From Myxococcota bacterium (lineage in GTDB: Bacteria; Myxococcota_A; SURF-8; G963663525), in the NCBI GenBank assembly GCA_963676915.2, contig CAXXVK010000062.1, positions 64,001 to 128,000 of the forward strand: 64,000 nt of DNA, written 5' to 3'. Below the pieces are notes generated by a model that searched no databases, had not been told where the DNA came from, and worked only from the letters and a program-made list of their open reading frames with translations. A program made the translations under genes and the position numbers. Shown one piece after another: positions 8,612-46,517 of this stretch; the first letter of the stretch is position 1; every line of letters begins with the position of its first letter.

Positions 8612-9766
8612 TTATTCTTCCAACCAACGCTTGATGTGACGGTATCGTTCGTTCCAATCATTTTGGGCTGACCATTGTCGACGGTCCGCTTTTCTATCAT
8701 CGGATGGCTTTTCGGATAGCGCGTTTTCGAGTTTCGTGCAATAGTCGGCTCGATTCTGCACAAGATACAACCGTTCAGCCGCACGATCCGCCGGTGGAAT
8801 CGGTGGACAGATCACCGGCAACCCAGCCCCGAGGTATTCGTAGAGCTTGATCATGTCTTGAGACAATGTATAAGGCGTGACCGGATGCGGAATCAACGCC
8901 GCGTCCACGTCGGCGAGCTTCGCCCTCAACGTGCTTACATGGACCTTACCGTGAAAATTAAAATTGCGGTGACTTTTGAGTGTCTTGAAAAGTTTTGGGC
9001 TATCAAGACTTCCGTAACAATCGAAAATTACACGAGGAAATGAATTCATCATTTCTTCCAGTGCATCGAGATCCAACCGTTCGGGATGGTAATATCCCGC
9101 CAGCAAAACACGCGCTGAACCGGTTTTTGCCTTGTACCTTTGCATCGGTGTCGGAATGGGACCGTGACCGGCGTTTGGAACATAGTGAAGATCCGTATGA
9201 CCGGGATATTTTTTCGCCAATATCGGATTGGTTACGAATACGGTATCCATTCGCGCCGCCGCTTCATATCCCTGTTGAATGCGTTTGAATCTCTTTTGCA
9301 TCAACGGCGATAGCAACCAGTCGTCGTTCGTATCGAACATTCGCTTTTTTGCCGGGAATTTCTCGGCAAACAGAGCTTCTTTGGGAGTGAACACCAACAA
9401 GCGCCCTCCCCACCCGAATTCGGGACATTCGCTCGCGATTCTTTGCAGCAAGCGGTTATCCAGCGCATACGGATAACAATGCTCCAATAAATACCTTCGT
9501 CTTGCGGCATGACCTTCGTGGCGCTCGATTTTCGTAAAAACTCCCCACGGACCGGAATGAAGAATTTTGCGTGAAAATCCGGGAGGTTGAAGCTTAACCC
9601 CCTGGTAAATCCACTTAGGATGTACCCGTGAAACGCTCAACAGGGACGAAATCGACGGATCGAGGATCAACCGATCCAGCAATGCCGCGCTTCGGTTGGT
9701 CGCTCCGTTGATCAACCGATGCGCATGGACATGGGCGGCAAGCACCGTCACAGGTCGCCGGATCAT
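8612..9766 (-). CDS. Glycosyltransferase (GT-B, TuaH-like)
   Basis: FDTNDDW, YVPNA, and IKLYEYLGAGLPVI motifs. Confidence 0.8.
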   Translation of the reverse strand: MIRRPVTVLAAHVHAHRLINGATNRSAALLDRLILDPSISSLLSVSRVHPKWIYQGVKLQPPGFSRKILHSGPWGVFTKIERHEGHAARRRYLLEHCYPYALDNRLLQRIASECPEFGWGGRLLVFTPKEALFAEKFPAKKRMFDTNDDWLLSPLMQKRFKRIQQGYEAAARMDTVFVTNPILAKKYPGHTDLHYVPNAGHGPIPTPMQRYKAKTGSARVLLAGYYHPERLDLDALEEMMNSFPRVIFDCYGSLDSPKLFKTLKSHRNFNFHGKVHVSTLRAKLADVDAALIPHPVTPYTLSQDMIKLYEYLGAGLPVICPPIPPADRAAERLYLVQNRADYCTKLENALSEKPSDDRKADRRQWSAQNDWNERYRHIKRWLEE

Positions 9767-11565
9767 CGGAAAACTCCTCGATAATACACGGGAAACACCA
9801 TGGCTTCGTGTAGGAAAAGGTTGCGATCTCCATCGCTTCCGGCTTCGTCGTTATCGAAACGAACGAGGATATCATTGACGCCTTCAGCGGCCTGAAATCG
9901 TACAGAGAACAGATGTGAGTCCGTTTCCGCCGAAACATCGCCCTCCCCTACTTCTTCTCCGTTGGCCAGAATCGTCAGATGAGGCATGACATCATGGTAA
10001 GCCTGCCCACTGACACGCAACCGTATCTCATACATACCCCGAACAAGTTCCAGTCTCCAGGTTGCATCCCCGTTGAAATACAGCTTGTTTCGCTGTTTTC
10101 CTCGCCAAACGGAAGGAGAGCCTTTTACAACCAGCCATTGCCGAAGCTGATTGACGATGCGCTGTTCGCCGATCCAGGCGTATAAACCAGCCAACTTGGC
10201 GATATATTTGCGGTTTCCCGGATCGGATTGCACGGCTTTTTCCCAGTTTTTCACCGCATCTTCGGGCTGAAAAGCCTCGTATTCGTGCAATCCCGAAAGA
10301 TATCGTTCGACGACGAGTCCGTAAGGATCACGTTTCAATCGGGTGGTAATGTTCTGCAAATGCTCGGTATCGTCGTTCTGAACGGCCAACTCGCCAGCCA
10401 GTTCAAGCAACTGTCCCAAAGGGGTAACTCGTGAATTCTGCCACCCTTTTTCAAGCGATTCCCGTTCTTTTGCCAATGCAGCGGGATCTTGCAGAACACG
10501 ATCGACCCAGGGTTGGAGTTTTGCACGAGCTTCGGCGGGTTGTCCGCGCCAGTGAAGTATTCGAGCCAGATGGATCGTTTCAAGTTCCGTAGCAGCCTCA
10601 CAGGCAAGCAGATCTTCCGTCGTTATCTGATCCTTCGCAAACAGTTGAAACGACACGAAAAGCTCTCCGGCATCGTACAACGCCGAAGCAAAAGCCAGAC
10701 GTGCCGAAGGTGTTCTTTCCACACGAAAAAGTCGGCTCAAAGCGGGTAAAGCCATTTCGGATTCGTTCGCTTCAACGAATTCTCTGGCCGCCAACCACAA
10801 AGCGTCCCGTTCTTTGGGCCACCAACCCAACTGTCTCCACGCAACGGCCCGGTGCATGGCGCGTTCTGCGGAACGGATAGACTCATCAGCCGATTCCGTC
10901 GGATCGGATGAAGAAGCAACCAGCGTCGCTACTTTGATAGGGGCGAAAAGTCCGAGAATCACTAGGAAAATACGCAAGCACCAAATCCACCGTTTAGCAT
11001 TCAGCGGTAGTTTTCTGCTTAGTGGCGAAGCAAGCACCAACACCAATGTTACAGCCATAAATAACGGAATTTGCGGAAGGATCGGCGTTTCAAGCGAAAA
11101 CGGTCTTACGATACTCCAAAGCAGTCCATCGGAAGACCAGACGCTTCGAGGTGCAACCTCCCATAAGGCTCCAAATACCTCCAGAGGCGGAAAAGCTTGG
11201 AAAAACAACATCAATCCCACAACAGCCACGATCGCAACGCCGATCATCCAGGATGGAAGCCAGCGTTTGAAAGAAGTCCCAAAAGCGGCAAAAATGATGG
11301 AAAGCAACAGACTTAGCGAAAGGACAAGTGGCAGCGATGAAAAAGCCGACAGCCTCGGATCAAGCATTCTCCAGCTTTCCACACCGGAAAAAGCCGTAAC
11401 AAACAAGAGAAGCGCTGAAAGAAAAACGTTGGAATTCCTGGCTCGTGGATAAAACGTAATCAGTAACGCAACAATGGCGACAAACGAAGTAACCCACCGT
11501 TGAACCGGCAGTGTGAACAACAACAGAAGTTCCGCAAGAATCAGGAAAAACGCTGAAAATTTCAC
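9763..11565 (-). CDS. Membrane protein with TPR region and C-terminal CBM60-like carbohydrate-binding module
   Basis: N-terminal TM helices, a helical TPR-like middle, and C-terminal VRFDNDEAGSDGDRNLFL motif. Confidence 0.65.
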   Translation of the reverse strand: MKFSAFFLILAELLLLFTLPVQRWVTSFVAIVALLITFYPRARNSNVFLSALLLFVTAFSGVESWRMLDPRLSAFSSLPLVLSLSLLLSIIFAAFGTSFKRWLPSWMIGVAIVAVVGLMLFFQAFPPLEVFGALWEVAPRSVWSSDGLLWSIVRPFSLETPILPQIPLFMAVTLVLVLASPLSRKLPLNAKRWIWCLRIFLVILGLFAPIKVATLVASSSDPTESADESIRSAERAMHRAVAWRQLGWWPKERDALWLAAREFVEANESEMALPALSRLFRVERTPSARLAFASALYDAGELFVSFQLFAKDQITTEDLLACEAATELETIHLARILHWRGQPAEARAKLQPWVDRVLQDPAALAKERESLEKGWQNSRVTPLGQLLELAGELAVQNDDTEHLQNITTRLKRDPYGLVVERYLSGLHEYEAFQPEDAVKNWEKAVQSDPGNRKYIAKLAGLYAWIGEQRIVNQLRQWLVVKGSPSVWRGKQRNKLYFNGDATWRLELVRGMYEIRLRVSGQAYHDVMPHLTILANGEEVGEGDVSAETDSHLFSVRFQAAEGVNDILVRFDNDEAGSDGDRNLFLHEAMVFPVYYRGVFR

Positions 11566-31543: not shown

Positions 31544-31583
31544 CACAGTAACTTAATGAAATTTAAGAGAAAAATGCATCGAT

Positions 31584-31655
31584 GGACGGGGATTGCATCC
31601 CCGTCCTAACGTTTTCTTCAAGGCAAAACGCGAAGAACAGGATGCAATCCTGCTC
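31584..31655. repeat. Inverted palindrome doublet (REP-doublet family 2, copy 1)
   Basis: GGACGGGGAT-TGC-ATCCCCGTCC, 28-bp spacer, then GAACAGGAT-GCA-ATCCTGCTC. A similar doublet occurs at 46562-46631. Confidence 0.65.
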
Positions 31656-31667
31656 CGCTTGTGCCCC

Positions 31668-31979
31668 TTATTTCAGAAGTCCCCCCGAATTCTCCCAAGT
31701 TGTTTGCCCGCCTACATCGACTCGAACATCTACAAACTGGCAATCGCCATCTTTGCATCTTTCAATTTTTGTCTGTTTGCATTCCGAGCTGCCATCTTCA
31801 TGGGCGATACAGTAATACAGTTGTGCAATTTCCTTATCCTTACTGTTAGCCCCCTCATTTTGGTGGACAGTCATCCAGAAACTATTATTCTCTTTCATCG
31901 AATGATGAAAATCAATGTGTGTCCCTCCACAACCGGCTAAGAGAATCGTCAGCACAAAACAAACAATTAGCATCCTCAT
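31668..31979 (-). CDS. Small Cys-containing lipoprotein
   Basis: ATG at 31979 with AGGAG RBS; lipobox LAG-C. Confidence 0.75.
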   Translation of the reverse strand: MRMLIVCFVLTILLAGCGGTHIDFHHSMKENNSFWMTVHQNEGANSKDKEIAQLYYCIAHEDGSSECKQTKIERCKDGDCQFVDVRVDVGGQTTWENSGGLLK

Positions 31980-32155
31980 GGTACTCTCCTGTGACAATGA
32001 AACAAACAGACGCCCAAATTCTTGCAGATCTCCCAACCTGCTTCGCAAATTCATTCGGAAAAGTACAGTTTAGAACGAAAATATGAAATCCACAAGATGG
32101 AGGAATAAAAATCTGCCCACTGGGGGGATTGGCGCCGAGTGCCCGGAACAAACAA

Positions 32156-32320
32156 GTAGGTCGGACAGATTTTCTGTCCGACATTTCCCGGTTGGAGCAT
32201 TTTTTTGTCGGACAGAAAATCTGTCCGACCTACCCAACTACCCAACTTTGAAAACGGGTGCAGAGCAGGTGTCCAACGTTGATGCATCAAACATCACGGC
32301 TTGTCGGGGTCAGGTGTCGT
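32156..32320. repeat. REPIN (inverted GTAG-REP doublet, 32156-32233) plus conserved ~70-bp tail, copy 1
   Basis: GTAGGTCGGACAGATTTTCTGTCCGACA ... TGTCGGACAGAAAATCTGTCCGACCTAC; near-identical to 32867-33044. Confidence 0.9.
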
Positions 32321-32356
32321 TTGCAACTGTCTTGACGGGTACACAAACTACCAAAC

Positions 32357-32764
32357 TCAAGAATTGTATCCAGCTTTGCTTTTTCTTACCATATAAATTG
32401 CAACAGGTAATATAATAAAAGCACTAAAATACAGTATCCTTTCACAATTGTTCATTACCTTCAATTCATCTAAATAGAGGCTATAAACGATCCTGTCATA
32501 AAAATCCGCCCATACAGAGTAGGAAAAAAACAACCACATTATTATGAGTAGAATGTGGTGTATGTAGTACATTTTTTTTGCTGAAAAGATGAACAAAATC
32601 GCAACCGGCACTCCAGGGATGACATTAACAGCAATTCTTAGAATAGAGCAGTTACTTTGTGAATTGCAGAAACCTGTTAAACCGAAAAATAAACACAGAA
32701 GTACTACGGATAGCATCGACATAGTGTATTTAATAGAAAAGACACTTGAGAAAATAGTTTTCAA
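32357..32764 (-). CDS. AT-rich membrane protein, putative orphan immunity protein
   Basis: Low GC, about 4 hydrophobic segments, TTG start with AAGGA RBS, lies in the toxin-immunity array. Confidence 0.6.
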   Translation of the reverse strand: MKTIFSSVFSIKYTMSMLSVVLLCLFFGLTGFCNSQSNCSILRIAVNVIPGVPVAILFIFSAKKMYYIHHILLIIMWLFFSYSVWADFYDRIVYSLYLDELKVMNNCERILYFSAFIILPVAIYMVRKSKAGYNS

Positions 32765-32782
32765 ATGACCATCCTTTTCTAA

Positions 32783-32860
32783 TTATGGACCATCGATTCC
32801 ACAAGACATTTCATTTTTTTCACGTCGTTTGGTGCTTTTTATTAATCCATTTTCTTTCAA
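32783..32860 (-). pseudogene. Possible truncated toxin C-terminal remnant
   Basis: Open frame LKENGLIKSTKRREKNEMSCGIDGP* ends just before the immunity-like gene and is cut at the REPIN. Confidence 0.3.
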
Positions 32861-32866
32861 GTAGTA

Positions 32867-33044
32867 GTAGGTCGGACAGATTTTCTGTCCGACATTTCCC
32901 GGTTGGAGCATTTTTTGTCGGACAGAAAATCTGTCCGACCTACCCGGCTAAATCGAAACCCTCTTCGAAACCGGGTGCAGAGCAGGTGTCCAACGTTGAT
33001 TGCTGATGCATCAAACATCACGGCTTGTCGGGATCAGGTGTCGT
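32867..33044. repeat. REPIN (32867-32943) plus conserved tail, copy 2
   Basis: Direct repeat of 32156-32320 with a 7-bp insertion (TGCTGAT) in the tail; preceded by extra GTA triplets (GTAGTAGTAG). Confidence 0.9.
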
Positions 33045-33471
33045 CGTTGTTGTGAGGATCGTTTTTGAGATTGGGATTCGGTAAAGAAATAGATTCAACA
33101 GGAAAATCAATTGTTTTAAAAATAAAAATTAAAGCTATTACGACATTCATTAAGTAAATTACGATAAAGAAGCTGATGCCAGTTTTTCCAAACTCAATCA
33201 AGCCAACATAAAAAGATTGAGTTACTACACAATAAGCCACGAAAAAATACTTATACAATTGCTTGTCTTTTAACATGTTTCTCCACAGAAAGATTATAGC
33301 AGCTAATGAATGACCGATACCTAAAAATCTAGGAAATAACCAAATACTATTTGGAAATTTCAAAGCCACCATTAAAACAAAATACCCTGTGACCGTTATT
33401 ATATGGCATAAAAGTATTTTATCTGCGTTCAATTGCCTGACTTTATAAATTTTCTTAAGTGCTGTTAACAT
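33034..33471 (-). CDS. Four-TM membrane protein, putative cognate immunity protein of the RHS tip
   Basis: ATG overlaps the toxin stop (TAATG at 33473-33469); AT-rich; hydrophobic helices. Confidence 0.7.
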   Translation of the reverse strand: MLTALKKIYKVRQLNADKILLCHIITVTGYFVLMVALKFPNSIWLFPRFLGIGHSLAAIIFLWRNMLKDKQLYKYFFVAYCVVTQSFYVGLIEFGKTGISFFIVIYLMNVVIALIFIFKTIDFPVESISLPNPNLKNDPHNNDDT

Positions 33472-34004
33472 TACATAGCCCAATCTTGTAGCCACTCTAC
33501 AAACTTATTTAAGGCTTCAACTGGTTCTTCTGATGCCTTACTTGCAATTTCCTTGAAATGCTCCAACTTTTGCTTTGCCACTTCATCATGATAAGGCTCA
33601 CATGCATCGTCTACATATTGTCCGAGCGGTCCTAATCCTAATAGGTTTCTCCAATGACCAAAGCAAATTCCATCAGGACACTCAGCCAAAGCCTCATCAA
33701 ATTGCTGTACACCTCTTTTGCTTAAACCAGGAAAAGCAACGAGCAGTTGGTATCCAGTCACGGCAGTTCCAACTACACCAAGCGGTAATCCTACTCCAGA
33801 GCCAACGGCAACAGCAGTAATAATTGCTCCAGTTCCACCACTTATTCCAGCCTTTCCAGCCCTAATTAGGTTTATAATACCAACTGTCATTTTTGTAACA
33901 TTTAGCATACCCTCCGGGTCGATCCCATTCACCGGGTCATTCCCGACGTACACGTACAGGTTCACCTGCCCTCTCGATGGAACGGAGATTCCAGCCGGTT
34001 GCAA
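33471..34004 (-). CDS. Orphan RHS C-terminal toxin tip (core remnant plus Gly-rich hydrophobic domain)
   Basis: NLYVYVGNDPVNGIDPEG is the RHS core end motif (PxxxxDPxG). GC content drops sharply after DPEG (~33909). Confidence 0.85.
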   Translation of the reverse strand: MQPAGISVPSRGQVNLYVYVGNDPVNGIDPEGMLNVTKMTVGIINLIRAGKAGISGGTGAIITAVAVGSGVGLPLGVVGTAVTGYQLLVAFPGLSKRGVQQFDEALAECPDGICFGHWRNLLGLGPLGQYVDDACEPYHDEVAKQKLEHFKEIASKASEEPVEALNKFVEWLQDWAM

Positions 34005-44560: not shown

Positions 44561-45244
44561 GTAGGTCGGGTGATTTCACCCGACAAAACGCAATACGTTG
44601 TTTTCATATCGATAAAATGGTTTTCCCCATCGAAAATCTCTTGGATTTTTGACTGAAAAAAATGTACTCTATCTTGCATGAAAGATCTAAGTCGATTGTA
44701 TGTTAATGGTGTAACGCATTTCTTTACCGTTGTTACCGATCAACGACGCCCGATATTATGTGACGCCCCCTTGCGTAGCAATTTGCGAAATGCTTTGCAA
44801 AGAGTTCGAATGAATTACCCATTCGAGATTGTAGCTTGGGTTTTATTGCCGGATCATCTTCATACCATATGGTCTCTGCCTAAAAACGATCCCGACTATT
44901 CTACCCGATGGCGACTGGTGAAAGGAATTGTTTCTCATCAGATGAAGAGCCGTTTGGATTTGGACAGATGCCGCTCGCAAAGTCAAATTCGGAAAGGGGA
45001 AAGCGGGTTATGGCAGCATCGTTTTTTGGAGCACACCATAAGGGATGAAAATGATTTCTCCCGTCACTTTGATTACATTCATTTCAATCCAATAAAGCAT
45101 GGTTTGGATGAAAATCCTGATGAATGGAAATGGTCAACGTATCACAGATATTTGAAACATGGTTATTACGGAGAACACCGACAATTGTTTGATTCGAATG
45201 TTGATGCTGAATGAAAAGCAATGTCGAGTGAAATCACCCGACCT
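44561..45244 (+). mobile_element. REPtron: RAYT gene flanked by inverted REPs
   Basis: Left REP GTAGGTCGGGTGATTTCACCCGACA (44561-44585); right inverted REP TGTCGAGTGAAATCACCCGACCT (45222-45244). Confidence 0.85.
44678..45214 (+). CDS. rayT: REP-associated tyrosine transposase (RAYT/TnpA-REP, Y1 HUH)
   Basis: FFTVVT, LPDHLH (HUH), WQHRFLEHTIRDE and YIHFNPIKHGL (catalytic Tyr) motifs. Confidence 0.93.
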   Translation: MKDLSRLYVNGVTHFFTVVTDQRRPILCDAPLRSNLRNALQRVRMNYPFEIVAWVLLPDHLHTIWSLPKNDPDYSTRWRLVKGIVSHQMKSRLDLDRCRSQSQIRKGESGLWQHRFLEHTIRDENDFSRHFDYIHFNPIKHGLDENPDEWKWSTYHRYLKHGYYGEHRQLFDSNVDAE

Positions 45245-45266
45245 GATGTGAGGGAGGAAAGAAATT

Positions 45267-46517
45267 GTGAAAATAACGCGTAAGCACCTTAAAAAGAATC
45301 CCATTAAGGCCAGGAAAACAAACCAATGGTTACACACTTTAAATAGATCTCCCTTTGTAGGACGATTCGCTTCTGCATATCAAGAGCTAAACGACATGTC
45401 TAGCGAATGTTTTTGGTGTGGGATAGGAAAGCTGTTTGTCTTTTTGCTGATTATTGCAGTGTTTTGGGGTGGCTTGCTGTCTAGCAGCTTGAAGATACTT
45501 GATTTGTTTGATGTGAAATTACGAGTTGATGACGATATCAAAATTGTTGGTAACGCCACTAAATACGGAGATACGTATAGCTATTTTGTTCACGCTGCAA
45601 GTACGTGGACAAATACCGGAATAAAATTGAATAACGGCGAGAGTATCAAAGTTGAAAACATTCTAGGAAAAGTGACTACAGGCTTACCAATTCCCGCAGA
45701 GTTTTACGGGCAGCTAAATAGTGTATGTGAATATGAGGGGCTAATTGCGGATCTAGACGCTTGTGAAAAATTTAGAGAATGCAGGAATAAACAATTCAAA
45801 GAAAATTTAAAAGAGGCGTGTGATGATAAAAGAAAGCATTGCATGATTGCATATGACGTAGTTTGCAAAGGTTTTAGTTTGATCGAAATTCTTGAAAATT
45901 ACGACTATTCTATTTCTTCTCAGACCAATCAATATTGTGACGAAAAGAGATGTTACACATTAGAAAATCAACAACTTAGCAACGAGAAAAAACAAGAAAA
46001 ATGTGGCGAGGCGTACTATAAGAATTACTATCCTGATGATTACGAAAAAATCATTCAATTTCCTCTTAAGAGTCTAGGATTAAGTTGTTCTCAAATAAAC
46101 GTAGTATCTAGATTTTTTTCACGTTATGCACGGCATAACTTTGTAGACTGGCATGGTCAAAAAGAGGAAAGTTACGTAGATAAAGATCGAGAACGACCTT
46201 TGCCGCAGTTGCCAGACTCGAAGGAATACTATGGTAAATTCGGGAAAAAATTTCCTCATTACTCTATTGATACGAATATGGTGGAAAAGAGTTATCCACA
46301 TGGAGCTCTCCTTATAGGATATACTGAGGATAGAGAAGATGAGTGTTGCAAAAAAATGCTAAAGTCAAAAAGACTAAAACAAGTAAAAAATAATAAAATT
46401 TACGATCTGCCCAAGGAATTATCAACTGGAGGATATATTTGCTTTGTAGTAAACGATGTAGATCAATTTCGAGGGAGTAACATAGGATTTTTCCAAATTC
46501 TTTTTCGAAAAAAGTAG
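45267..46517 (+). CDS. AT-rich membrane-anchored protein with possible PA-IL/LecA-like lectin fold split by a Cys-rich insert
   Basis: TM helix; WTNTGIKL..G..I.V and, about 200 aa later, GALLIG...ICFVVND...SNIGFF. Start uncertain. Confidence 0.55.
   Translation: MKITRKHLKKNPIKARKTNQWLHTLNRSPFVGRFASAYQELNDMSSECFWCGIGKLFVFLLIIAVFWGGLLSSSLKILDLFDVKLRVDDDIKIVGNATKYGDTYSYFVHAASTWTNTGIKLNNGESIKVENILGKVTTGLPIPAEFYGQLNSVCEYEGLIADLDACEKFRECRNKQFKENLKEACDDKRKHCMIAYDVVCKGFSLIEILENYDYSISSQTNQYCDEKRCYTLENQQLSNEKKQEKCGEAYYKNYYPDDYEKIIQFPLKSLGLSCSQINVVSRFFSRYARHNFVDWHGQKEESYVDKDRERPLPQLPDSKEYYGKFGKKFPHYSIDTNMVEKSYPHGALLIGYTEDREDECCKKMLKSKRLKQVKNNKIYDLPKELSTGGYICFVVNDVDQFRGSNIGFFQILFRKK

What the first reader, a model, noticed from the sequence alone, without database searches (positions are those of the whole stretch)
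32153..34004. REPIN-delimited orphan RHS toxin/immunity cassette array
Seen, reading the minus strand: RHS tip, then a TAATG-coupled 4-TM gene, then a ~70-bp tail plus REP doublet, then a truncated ORF remnant and a second membrane gene, then the same tail plus REP doublet. Both copies have CAA next to the GTAG end, and no full RHS gene is in the window. Established: RHS orphan tips usually recombine through repeated core sequence, and RAYT (HUH Y1) enzymes cleave single-stranded REP hairpins next to GTAG. Inference: the cassettes may be captured, deleted or reshuffled through the REPIN-plus-tail element, making this an integron-like immunity library run by a RAYT rather than by IntI or RHS homology.
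Basis: partly seen in the sequence, partly recalled or inferred. Interest (0 to 1): 0.85.

Follow-up and report, generated by a model that had tools for sequence, protein, structure and literature searches.

The report
Repeat-bounded orphan RHS toxin/immunity island
A leftover tip of an RHS toxin gene with its protective membrane gene, plus a second stray membrane gene, sits in a myxobacterial genome with each unit closed by the same mosaic of small mobile repeats, which most likely served as recombination handles rather than as an enzyme-run cassette system.

Summary
On the minus strand lie an orphan RHS tip (34004-33471), a TAATG-coupled multi-pass membrane gene (33471-33034), a ~100-nt tail plus REP doublet, a second 4-TM gene (32764-32357), and the same tail plus doublet.

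The REP is the cognate repeat of a RAYT gene on another contig. All 12 copies of this variant in the genome lie at three loci, and all three carry the tail.

The tail, not the REPIN, marks the cassette boundary.
- Two module pairs between this genome and its sister species keep the RHS core end and the tail. Their toxin/immunity content is unrelated.
- The sister's copy of the tail has no REPIN.
- The tail's first ~36 nt is the 5' arm of a second REP-type repeat ("X") that flanks a second RAYT class.
- The REPINs are younger than the tails.
- In relatives the same REPIN also sits at ordinary intergenic sites.

Still, all 7 detached RHS orphan loci in four genomes carry REP-type repeats, against 0 of 4 loci attached to a full rhs gene. 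REP ends also abut truncated RHS cores and a truncated IS630 gene.

Verdict: a recombination-built orphan island using repeat mosaics as portable homology. RAYT catalysis is unproven, at about 0.13.

The parts
33471..34004 (-). Orphan RHS C-terminal tip. About 33 codons of RHS core end are followed by a 144-aa toxin domain, predicted as an all-helical hairpin with a Gly-rich hydrophobic stretch.
   Evidence: TIGR03696 positions 54-76 of 76. 126 homologue clusters at E<=1e-3. Of 9 scanned, 4 are RHS proteins of 1597-1936 aa that carry the domain at their C-terminus. Model pLDDT 79.4, with long helices 36-69 and 73-108. No solved fold match at E<=0.001.
33034..33471 (-). Candidate immunity gene, 145 aa, multi-pass membrane protein. 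Its start overlaps the tip's stop (TAATG). Its own stop codon lies inside the tail start.
   Evidence: GC 0.31 against 0.50 for the window. No Pfam or NCBIfam family. No atlas hit at 0.9 or above.
32944..33046 (-). Tail A. Its first ~36 nt (33010-33046) is homologous to the 5' arm of the X repeat and carries stop codons in all three frames. A conserved core at 32973-32994 follows.
   Evidence: 97% identical over 59 nt to the tail behind a different immunity gene in sister genome G001.
32867..32943 (.). REPIN A: two inverted 28-nt REPs with outward-facing GTAG ends.
   Evidence: (pair I3).
32765..32866 (-). Spacer with a (GTA)n run and a 28-codon open stretch ending 15 nt before the next gene. 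It may be a toxin 3' remnant, but this is unverified.
   Evidence: ORF 32783-32911.
32357..32764 (-). Second membrane gene, 135 aa with 4 hydrophobic segments. Probably an orphan immunity gene. It has no toxin and no RHS core remnant of its own.
   Evidence: GC 0.33. No family. No similarity to the first immunity gene.
32234..32322 (-). Tail B: X-arm-like start at 32287-32320 and core at 32256-32277.
   Evidence: Against tail A it shows 7 mismatches and 3 indels (16 gap columns) in about 100 aligned columns.
32156..32233 (.). REPIN B. It differs from REPIN A only by one homopolymer indel within the element.
   Evidence: pair I1; fold.

Best explanation
This is a detached orphan RHS toxin/immunity island in a Myxococcota genome. 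It holds one toxin tip with its cognate membrane immunity gene, plus one extra stray immunity-type gene.

The modules are bounded by two conserved arms. The 5' arm is the last codons of the RHS core. The 3' arm is a ~100-nt tail whose beginning is a decayed 5' arm of a REP-type repeat (X) belonging to a second RAYT class.

Toxin/immunity content is swapped, and modules are stacked, by recombination within these arms. This is most likely ordinary homologous or short-homology recombination. The second module has no RHS remnant, so it must have been added through the repeat mosaic itself.

The REPINs of the contig-C1 RAYT settled at the outer end of each tail later, or are kept uniform. They then add further portable homology and breakpoints.

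Inferred function: the immunity genes protect against RHS toxins delivered by relatives. The tip cannot be delivered, because the assembly holds no RHS shell gene to fuse with.

Shown: the anatomy, the repeat families and their RAYT links, and the conserved ends around unrelated contents. Inferred: the recombination route, the immunity function, and a membrane-inserting action of the toxin.
For: - Conserved ends, unrelated contents. Window 33971-33910 matches G001 L024 at 95% over 62 nt. Window 33043-32985 matches it at 97% over 59 nt. No similarity lies between these matches. A second pair (C57 and G001 L029) gives 86% over 65 nt and 81% over 107 nt.
- The G001 tail has no REPIN. There it encodes the last codons of a different immunity gene.
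- The tail start aligns with X copies. X flanks a RAYT-class gene in inverted orientation at two G001 loci (NF047646, 95 bits).
- In genus g5 (G005), X follows an immunity gene and precedes an RHS core fragment at two module junctions of each of two arrays (3 modules each). In the L025 array a truncated third copy lies downstream of the last module.
- 12 of 16 X 5' arms have stops in all three frames, against 2.5% of random 33-mers.
- REPIN A and B show 0 substitutions within the element. The adjoining tails show 7 mismatches and 3 indels. All 12 variant copies share an identical 24-nt core.
- Cassette GC is 0.31-0.33 against 0.50 for the window.
- Toxins and immunities of all modules compared are mutually unrelated, as in polymorphic toxin systems.
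Against: - No strain-level gain or loss could be observed. Synteny with the only same-genus genome is broken at this site. Exact-match scans of public collections found no further tail copy.
- Homology of the tail to X rests on about 36-40 nt. An X profile did not score the window.
- Constant REP ends recur against truncated sequences. Examples are RHS cores in G001 and G007, a half REPIN fused to an RHS core remnant, and a truncated IS630 gene 99% identical to an intact copy. This pattern fits element-end-dependent events at least as well as plain homologous recombination.
- 7 of 7 detached orphan loci carry REP-type repeats against 0 of 4 attached loci. This suggests the repeats do more than sit there.
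- The different contig depths on the two sides of REPIN A leave a chimeric or strain-variable join possible.
Confidence: 0.6

Rival explanations
1. One reading: RAYT enzymes acting on their REP-type repeats (REPIN variant 1, and X) cut and join DNA at repeat ends. In this way they detach RHS toxin/immunity modules from rhs genes, move them and stack them. The result would be a repeat-bounded cassette system analogous to an integron.
For: - All 12 copies of this REP variant lie at three loci that carry the tail. One of these is the RAYT locus itself, where a low-GC ORF lies between a REP and tail+REP.
- A constant REP end abuts five different truncated sequences. X ends abut RHS cores at different positions in G001 and G005.
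- 7 of 7 detached orphan loci carry REP-type repeats, against 0 of 4 attached loci.
- In G005, 6 of 24 GTAG-REPs lie in two arrays totalling about 9 kb of 5.3 Mb.
- Two RAYT remnants flanked by X lie just downstream of an orphan module in G001.
- REPINs at both tails are identical although the tails have diverged.
- The E. coli enzyme performs strand transfer in vitro (passages of PMC3479197).
Against: - The variable region ends at the tail start, not at the REP.
- One homologous tail has no REPIN.
- Within the G005 array, REPs lie before X, inside X and after an immunity gene, so not at one fixed point.
- The same REPIN sits between housekeeping genes in relatives.
- The [X + core fragment] junction is identical between modules of one array. 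It was therefore copied, not made anew each time.
- The sample is four related genomes, and the groups were defined after looking.
- There is no biochemical evidence.
Confidence: 0.13
2. The repeats are mere passengers. REP-type elements accumulate wherever insertions are tolerated, such as AT-rich, horizontally acquired, non-essential DNA, and are copied along when arrays duplicate. On this view the island was built by the usual RHS tip displacement, without any contribution from the repeats.
For: - The genome is rich in small repeats: 168 REP-like sites in four subfamilies, about 51 places of a third 77-nt family, and X remnants.
- REPINs in relatives are ordinary intergenic elements.
- Flank similarity shows some array REPs are duplicates of each other.
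Against: - The second module has no RHS core remnant and is bracketed by the mosaic on both sides. RHS-core homology cannot have placed it.
- No rhs gene is present in the assembly.
- The conserved 3' boundary of unrelated cassettes is the repeat-derived tail.
- The 7 of 7 against 0 of 4 contrast.
Confidence: 0.17
3. The two-module array is an assembly join of two separate REPIN-flanked loci, or of two strains, through the identical 77-78-nt REPIN.
For: - Contigs of the one public run found break in every REP copy and none spans REPIN A.
- Depth is 3.94 for the contig covering 32979-34300 and beyond, against 7.0-7.1 for 31578-32889.
- The two flanks are not neighbours in any of the three relatives.
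Against: - A 78-nt repeat is spanned by ordinary 150-nt reads.
- Contigs do bridge REP-to-gene-to-REP for the second module (32206-32889) and REP-to-tail A (32929-33002).
- Each half would still be a tail-plus-REPIN-bounded cassette.
Confidence: 0.1

Closest known systems
Orphan rhs toxin/immunity modules (abstract of PMC3967940, Salmonella; listing of PMC10539506, Serratia orphan immunity)
   Same: A gene fragment encodes the end of the RHS core plus a variable toxin. It lacks start and export signals and is linked to a specific immunity gene. Contents are polymorphic between relatives, and extra immunity genes are hoarded.
   Different: - Known orphans lie downstream of a main rhs gene and recombine with it through shared core sequence.
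- Here no rhs gene is in the assembly, and the module sits 20 nt behind an unrelated DnaJ/HTH gene.
- There is a conserved 3' arm derived from a REP-type repeat.
- The second module has no core sequence at all.
REPIN/RAYT systems (abstracts of PMC3116915 and PMC3337134; passages of PMC3479197)
   Same: A 5' GTAG plus hairpin, an inverted doublet that forms a long hairpin, and the same REP flanking a RAYT gene in inverted orientation. Several REP subfamilies and two RAYT genes occur in one genome.
   Different: - This variant has only 12 copies, confined to three loci that share an unrelated tail sequence.
- REPINs are described as gene-free intergenic elements. An association with toxin/immunity modules or with truncated gene ends was not found in the papers searched.
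Recombination and insertion at REP clusters (title and abstract of PMC1525189: REPs as IS targets; a title seen only in the reference list of PMC10210955: porA deletion by recombination between REP clusters in Neisseria)
   Same: Dispersed REP clusters act as portable homology or hot spots that create deletions and rearrangements.
   Different: Those cases are deletions or IS insertions. They are not the repeated bounding and stacking of toxin/immunity modules.
Integron gene cassettes (IntI, attI, attC; features recalled, no paper read)
   Same: Promoterless small genes are stacked in one orientation, each closed by a related repeat.
   Different: - No IntI is present.
- The boundary sequence (the tail) is unstructured.
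- The structured part (the REPIN) is a perfect long palindrome lying outside the variable boundary.
- There are only two units.

Membership tests
RHS/YD polymorphic toxin, orphan C-terminal module | End of the RHS-associated core (DPxG motif) immediately before the variable domain | tested here: met
   TIGR03696 positions 54-76 of 76, E = 5.4e-5, 23.6 bits. The score is below the 32.5 cut-off because only the last 23 positions remain. The DNA is 95% identical over 62 nt to the core end of a 397-aa RHS fragment in G001.
RHS/YD polymorphic toxin, orphan C-terminal module | The variable C-terminal domain is found at the end of full-length RHS proteins elsewhere | tested here: met
   126 clusters at E<=1e-3. 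9 of them were scanned: 4 proteins of 1597-1936 aa have RHS repeats and carry the domain at their extreme C-terminus, and 5 shorter ones have RHS or YD-shell pieces. A word-index search of longer proteins found none.
RHS/YD polymorphic toxin, orphan C-terminal module | Cognate immunity gene directly downstream that neutralises the toxin | not testable with these tools
   Position and TAATG overlap fit. The protein has no known family. Neutralisation needs an experiment.
RHS/YD polymorphic toxin, orphan C-terminal module | A main rhs gene in the genome sharing core sequence, the partner for reactivation | tested here: not met
   0 PF05593 hits. TIGR03696 hits only the two orphan tips. tblastn with G001 RHS fragments hits only this tip. 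The assembly is 90.8% complete and long repeats may be unassembled.
REPIN/RAYT system | REP: a short hairpin with a conserved 5' GTAG | tested here: met
   10 of the 12 variant copies have GTAG and 2 have CTGG. Across all 168 REP-like sites, 122 are preceded by GTA.
REPIN/RAYT system | Two REPs in inverted orientation forming one long hairpin | tested here: met
   -33.7 kcal/mol, z = -10.7, with 0 of 200 shuffles as good.
REPIN/RAYT system | The same REP flanks a RAYT gene in inverted orientation | tested here: met
   Contig C1 (locus L001): REPs at 9129-9156 and 9254-9281 (+) and at 9873-9900 (-) surround ORF 9325-9861. That ORF scores 190.5 bits on NF047646 against a cut-off of 80.
REPIN/RAYT system | Many dispersed intergenic copies | tested here: inconclusive
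   This variant has 12 copies at 3 loci only. The wider REP superfamily has 168 sites. In relatives the variant is dispersed: 16 sites in G005 and 24 in G007 at up to 2 mismatches.
REPIN/RAYT system | RAYT binds and cleaves its REP | not testable with these tools
   Needs biochemistry. Only the E. coli enzyme's properties were read.
Integron | IntI integrase next to the array | tested here: not met
   The best TIGR02249 hit in the genome scores 73.3 bits against a cut-off of 265, and it lies on other contigs.
Integron | attC-type imperfect hairpin at each cassette end | tested here: not met
   The tails fold no better than shuffles (z +1.58 and +1.02). No Rfam family reaches its gathering score.

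The most novel reading that the evidence does not exclude
Two REP/RAYT systems supply the portable ends by which RHS toxin/immunity modules are cut loose from rhs genes, carried to new sites and stacked. The systems are the GTAG REPIN and the X repeat, whose 5' arm carries stops in all three frames and closes whatever gene is joined to it. That would give REPIN/RAYT systems a concrete host-level role in shuffling toxin and immunity genes, and would define a repeat-bounded cassette system distinct from integrons.
Probability: 0.13. Interest if true: 0.85.

Novelty: new variant of a known kind. Interest (0 to 1): 0.55.

Why it matters
Orphan RHS modules are thought to depend on core homology with a resident rhs gene. 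Here the modules are detached from any rhs gene and have a conserved 3' arm made from a REP-type repeat. One module has only repeat mosaics at both ends.

What REPIN/RAYT systems do for their hosts is still unknown (abstracts). A reproducible link between REP-type repeats, breakpoints of truncated genes and detached toxin/immunity modules gives a concrete place to test for RAYT activity. The link is seen in four genomes of three genera.

If the repeats are only passive homology, the case still shows how small dispersed repeats let immunity genes spread and pile up away from their parent locus.

Tried and rejected
- attC-like reading of the tail: rejected. The tail is unstructured.
- Rfam: only four sub-threshold miRNA-type hairpin hits on the REPINs.
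- Integron integrase: none over the cut-off.
- Empty-site comparison with the same-genus genome: not possible. The DnaJ/HTH and protease flanks lie on different contigs there, and neighbouring blocks are scattered.
- Public-collection scans:
  - tail core, 0 stretches in metagenome contigs;
  - tail start, 0 stretches in genome contigs;
  - REP 27-mer, 2 stretches of one Myxococcota genome (G007) in genome contigs;
  - REP 27-mer, one 2-kb metagenome contig beside an IS4-type transposase gene.
  The tool notes that own and near genomes may be left out of these scans.
- Reads: one run found, kept as contigs only. It gave no joints and no cover across REPIN A.
- Promoter and terminator scan: not above shuffles.
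- Longer homologues of the toxin by word index: none.
- Atlas look-up of the immunity protein: best score 0.89, no family.
- Fold search of the toxin model: no match at E<=0.001.
- Earlier-findings look-ups by place and by sequence: nothing.
- Complex prediction for toxin with immunity: not attempted.
- The 28-codon 'remnant' before the second gene: too short to search.
Full report
**1. What is there**

Reading the minus strand, the layout is as follows.
- The DnaJ/HTH_25 gene (34750-34025) stops 20 nt before a 177-aa ORF (34004-33471).
- Residues 11-33 of that ORF match the last 23 positions of the RHS-associated core model TIGR03696.
- The ORF's TAA overlaps the ATG of a 145-aa membrane ORF (33471-33034).
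- Next come a ~100-nt tail and a REP doublet (arms 32943-32916 and 32894-32867).
- A ~100-nt spacer follows.
- Then comes a 135-aa ORF with four hydrophobic segments (32764-32357).
- The region ends with the same tail and doublet (arms 32233-32206 and 32183-32156).

The duplicated unit is 88% identical over 180 nt. The doublet folds as one hairpin at -33.7 kcal/mol, z = -10.7. Cassette genes have GC 0.31-0.33 against 0.50 for the window.

**2. The tip is an RHS toxin tip, and it is orphaned**

An exhaustive HMMER search gave 126 representative clusters at E<=1e-3, of which 42 were at E<=1e-10. I scanned nine of them. Four proteins of 1597-1936 aa carry RHS repeats and bear the domain at their extreme C-terminus. 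The other five carry RHS-core or YD-shell pieces.

An alignment of 29 of the hits shows invariant N45, N120, G123, D132 and D133. The model (pLDDT 79.4) is all-helical, with a long hydrophobic, Gly-rich helical hairpin. It has no solved counterpart at E<=0.001. A membrane-inserting toxin matched by a membrane immunity protein is an inference.

The 90.8%-complete assembly has no RHS shell. There are 0 PF05593 hits. TIGR03696 hits only this tip and a second orphan on contig C57, and tblastn with G001 RHS fragments hits only this tip.

**3. The REP belongs to a RAYT**

The genome holds 168 REP-like sites in four stem variants: 74, 40, 22 and 12 copies. The 12-copy variant is the one seen here. 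It occurs only at C62 (4 copies), C57 (4) and C1 (4).

On C1 the copies flank, in inverted orientation, a 178-aa gene that scores 190.5 bits on the REP-associated tyrosine transposase model, whose cut-off is 80. Directly behind that gene lie a REP, a low-GC 152-aa ORF, a partial tail and another REP.

C57 holds a second orphan RHS tip with a 139-aa downstream ORF, a tail and REPs. The window itself has a second RAYT (44678-45214, 56% identical), flanked by the 40-copy variant.

**4. The tail is the cassette boundary, and it derives from a second repeat family**

In the only same-genus genome (G001), a 397-aa RHS fragment has the same core end, a different toxin and a different immunity gene. 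That immunity gene's last codons are the tail start. No REPIN follows.

At the DNA level, two module pairs share only their ends.
- Window and L024: 95% over 62 nt at the core end and 97% over 59 nt at the tail.
- C57 and L029: 86% over 65 nt and 81% over 107 nt.

Nothing alignable lies in between. This is cassette polymorphism bounded by the core end and the tail start, not by the REP.

The first ~36 nt of the tail align with the 5' arm of a ~80-nt repeat that I call X. Several observations characterise X.
- X flanks a second class of RAYT gene in inverted orientation at two G001 loci, and lies upstream of it in G007.
- X lies beside two RAYT remnants just downstream of the L029 module.
- In another genus (G005), X follows an immunity gene and precedes an RHS core fragment at two module junctions of each of two arrays (3 modules each). 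A truncated third copy lies downstream of the last module of the L025 array.
- 12 of 16 X 5' arms carry stops in all three frames, against 2.5% of random 33-mers. The copies are related, so this is a family trait.

An X profile did not score the window, so the homology rests on the short arm only. The tails have no structure of their own.

**5. The REPINs are secondary, but not innocent**

REPIN A and B have no substitution within the element, whereas the adjoining tails differ by 7 mismatches and 3 indels. The REPINs therefore arrived, or were homogenised, after the tails were duplicated.

In relatives the same REPIN sits between ordinary genes. I scanned 27 of the 45 ORFs listed at 8 distinct places. 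Neighbours include SpoVR and acetyl-CoA carboxyltransferase, DsbD and NhaA, and IS transposases. None matched an RHS family.

Yet a constant REP end abuts truncated sequences again and again.
- An RHS core in G001.
- An RHS core at another position in G007.
- A half REPIN fused to a frameshifted RHS core remnant on C57.
- An IS630 transposase gene on C57, cut at the REPIN end although 99% identical to an intact copy.
- X ends joined to RHS cores at different positions in G001 and G005.

All 7 RHS core-end loci not attached to a full-length rhs gene carry REP or X elements. These are G000 C62 and C57, G001 L024 and L029, G005 L025 and L028, and G007 L026. None of the 4 loci attached to a full-length gene does (L027, and 8-kb stretches L038-L040).

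In G005, 6 of 24 GTAG-REPs lie in the two arrays.

Caveats apply. The detectors were my own regex and a profile built from six X copies of L024 and L025. The groups were defined after looking. The genomes are related. Some array repeats are copies of one another.

**6. Reading**

The best-supported model is an orphan island whose modules are exchanged and stacked by recombination within conserved arms: the RHS core end and the repeat-derived tail. The second module has no RHS sequence at all, so it must have been added through the repeat mosaic itself. Confidence is 0.6.

The breakpoint pattern gives it some support, but it lacks any direct evidence and is contradicted at the one boundary that could be tested. 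I give it 0.13.

Pure passenger status of the repeats gets 0.17. An assembly join at REPIN A gets 0.1. That last rival rests: contigs break at every REP, and depth is 3.9 against about 7.

**7. Context**

The public record of a same-order relative (G007) is titled as a Myxococcota MAG. Searches of the paper library for REP, REPIN or RAYT together with Rhs or orphan found no work linking them. The one paper containing all the terms treats them separately.

From PMC3479197 I read passages. From PMC3967940 I read the abstract. For the other papers I saw only listings or abstracts.

Earlier AI notes from other genomes describe REP-like repeats and RAYT cassettes beside displaced gene ends. I treat these as leads only.

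Noticed in passing
window 44561-45245 and 45267-46517: A second RAYT gene (44678-45214, 178 aa, 56% identical to the C1 RAYT) is flanked by inverted copies of another REP stem variant (44561-44585 and 45222-45245). It is followed at once by a low-GC (0.36) 416-aa ORF of no Pfam family and then a hairpin of the third repeat family. The layout 'RAYT, REP, low-GC ORF, repeat' is the same as on contig C1.
   Followed up: partly
window 31580-31660: A third dispersed repeat family: about 77 nt with two hairpins, at roughly 51 places in the genome. It also lies beside the REP clusters on C1 (L001 10620-10670) and C57 (L002 9150-9210).
   Followed up: partly
L001 9095-9128 (contig C1), window 32861-32869, L002 10948-10959: Short tandem runs sit exactly at REP GTAG ends. 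An 8-mer beginning GTAG is repeated four times upstream of the RAYT's first REP. A (GTA)3-4 run lies at three REPIN ends. 12 of 168 REPs are preceded by GTAGTA. These may be footprints of repeated processing at the GTAG end.
   Followed up: partly
L002 10948-12021 (contig C57): Beside the second orphan RHS module lies an IS630-type transposase gene cut at the REPIN end, 99% identical over 218 nt to an intact copy on C17. It is followed by a 294-aa tyrosine-recombinase-like ORF. This suggests a genomic-island edge.
   Followed up: partly
L029 4380-5060 (G001 contig C3): Two tandem units, each holding a C-terminal remnant of a RAYT-like gene between inverted X hairpins, lie about 500 nt downstream of an orphan RHS toxin/immunity module.
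   Followed up: no
window 32979-33026: A 4.7-kb contig of the public run matches the tail core with 3 mismatches. It then continues into a canonical X 5' arm instead of the window's version. A further tail variant therefore exists in the sample and is not in this assembly.
   Followed up: no
L014 825-1535 and L023 987-1484 (G005): Two low-GC (0.33-0.35) ORFs of no Pfam family end directly at REPINs of the same variant in a relative. They may be further repeat-adjacent cassette genes.
   Followed up: no
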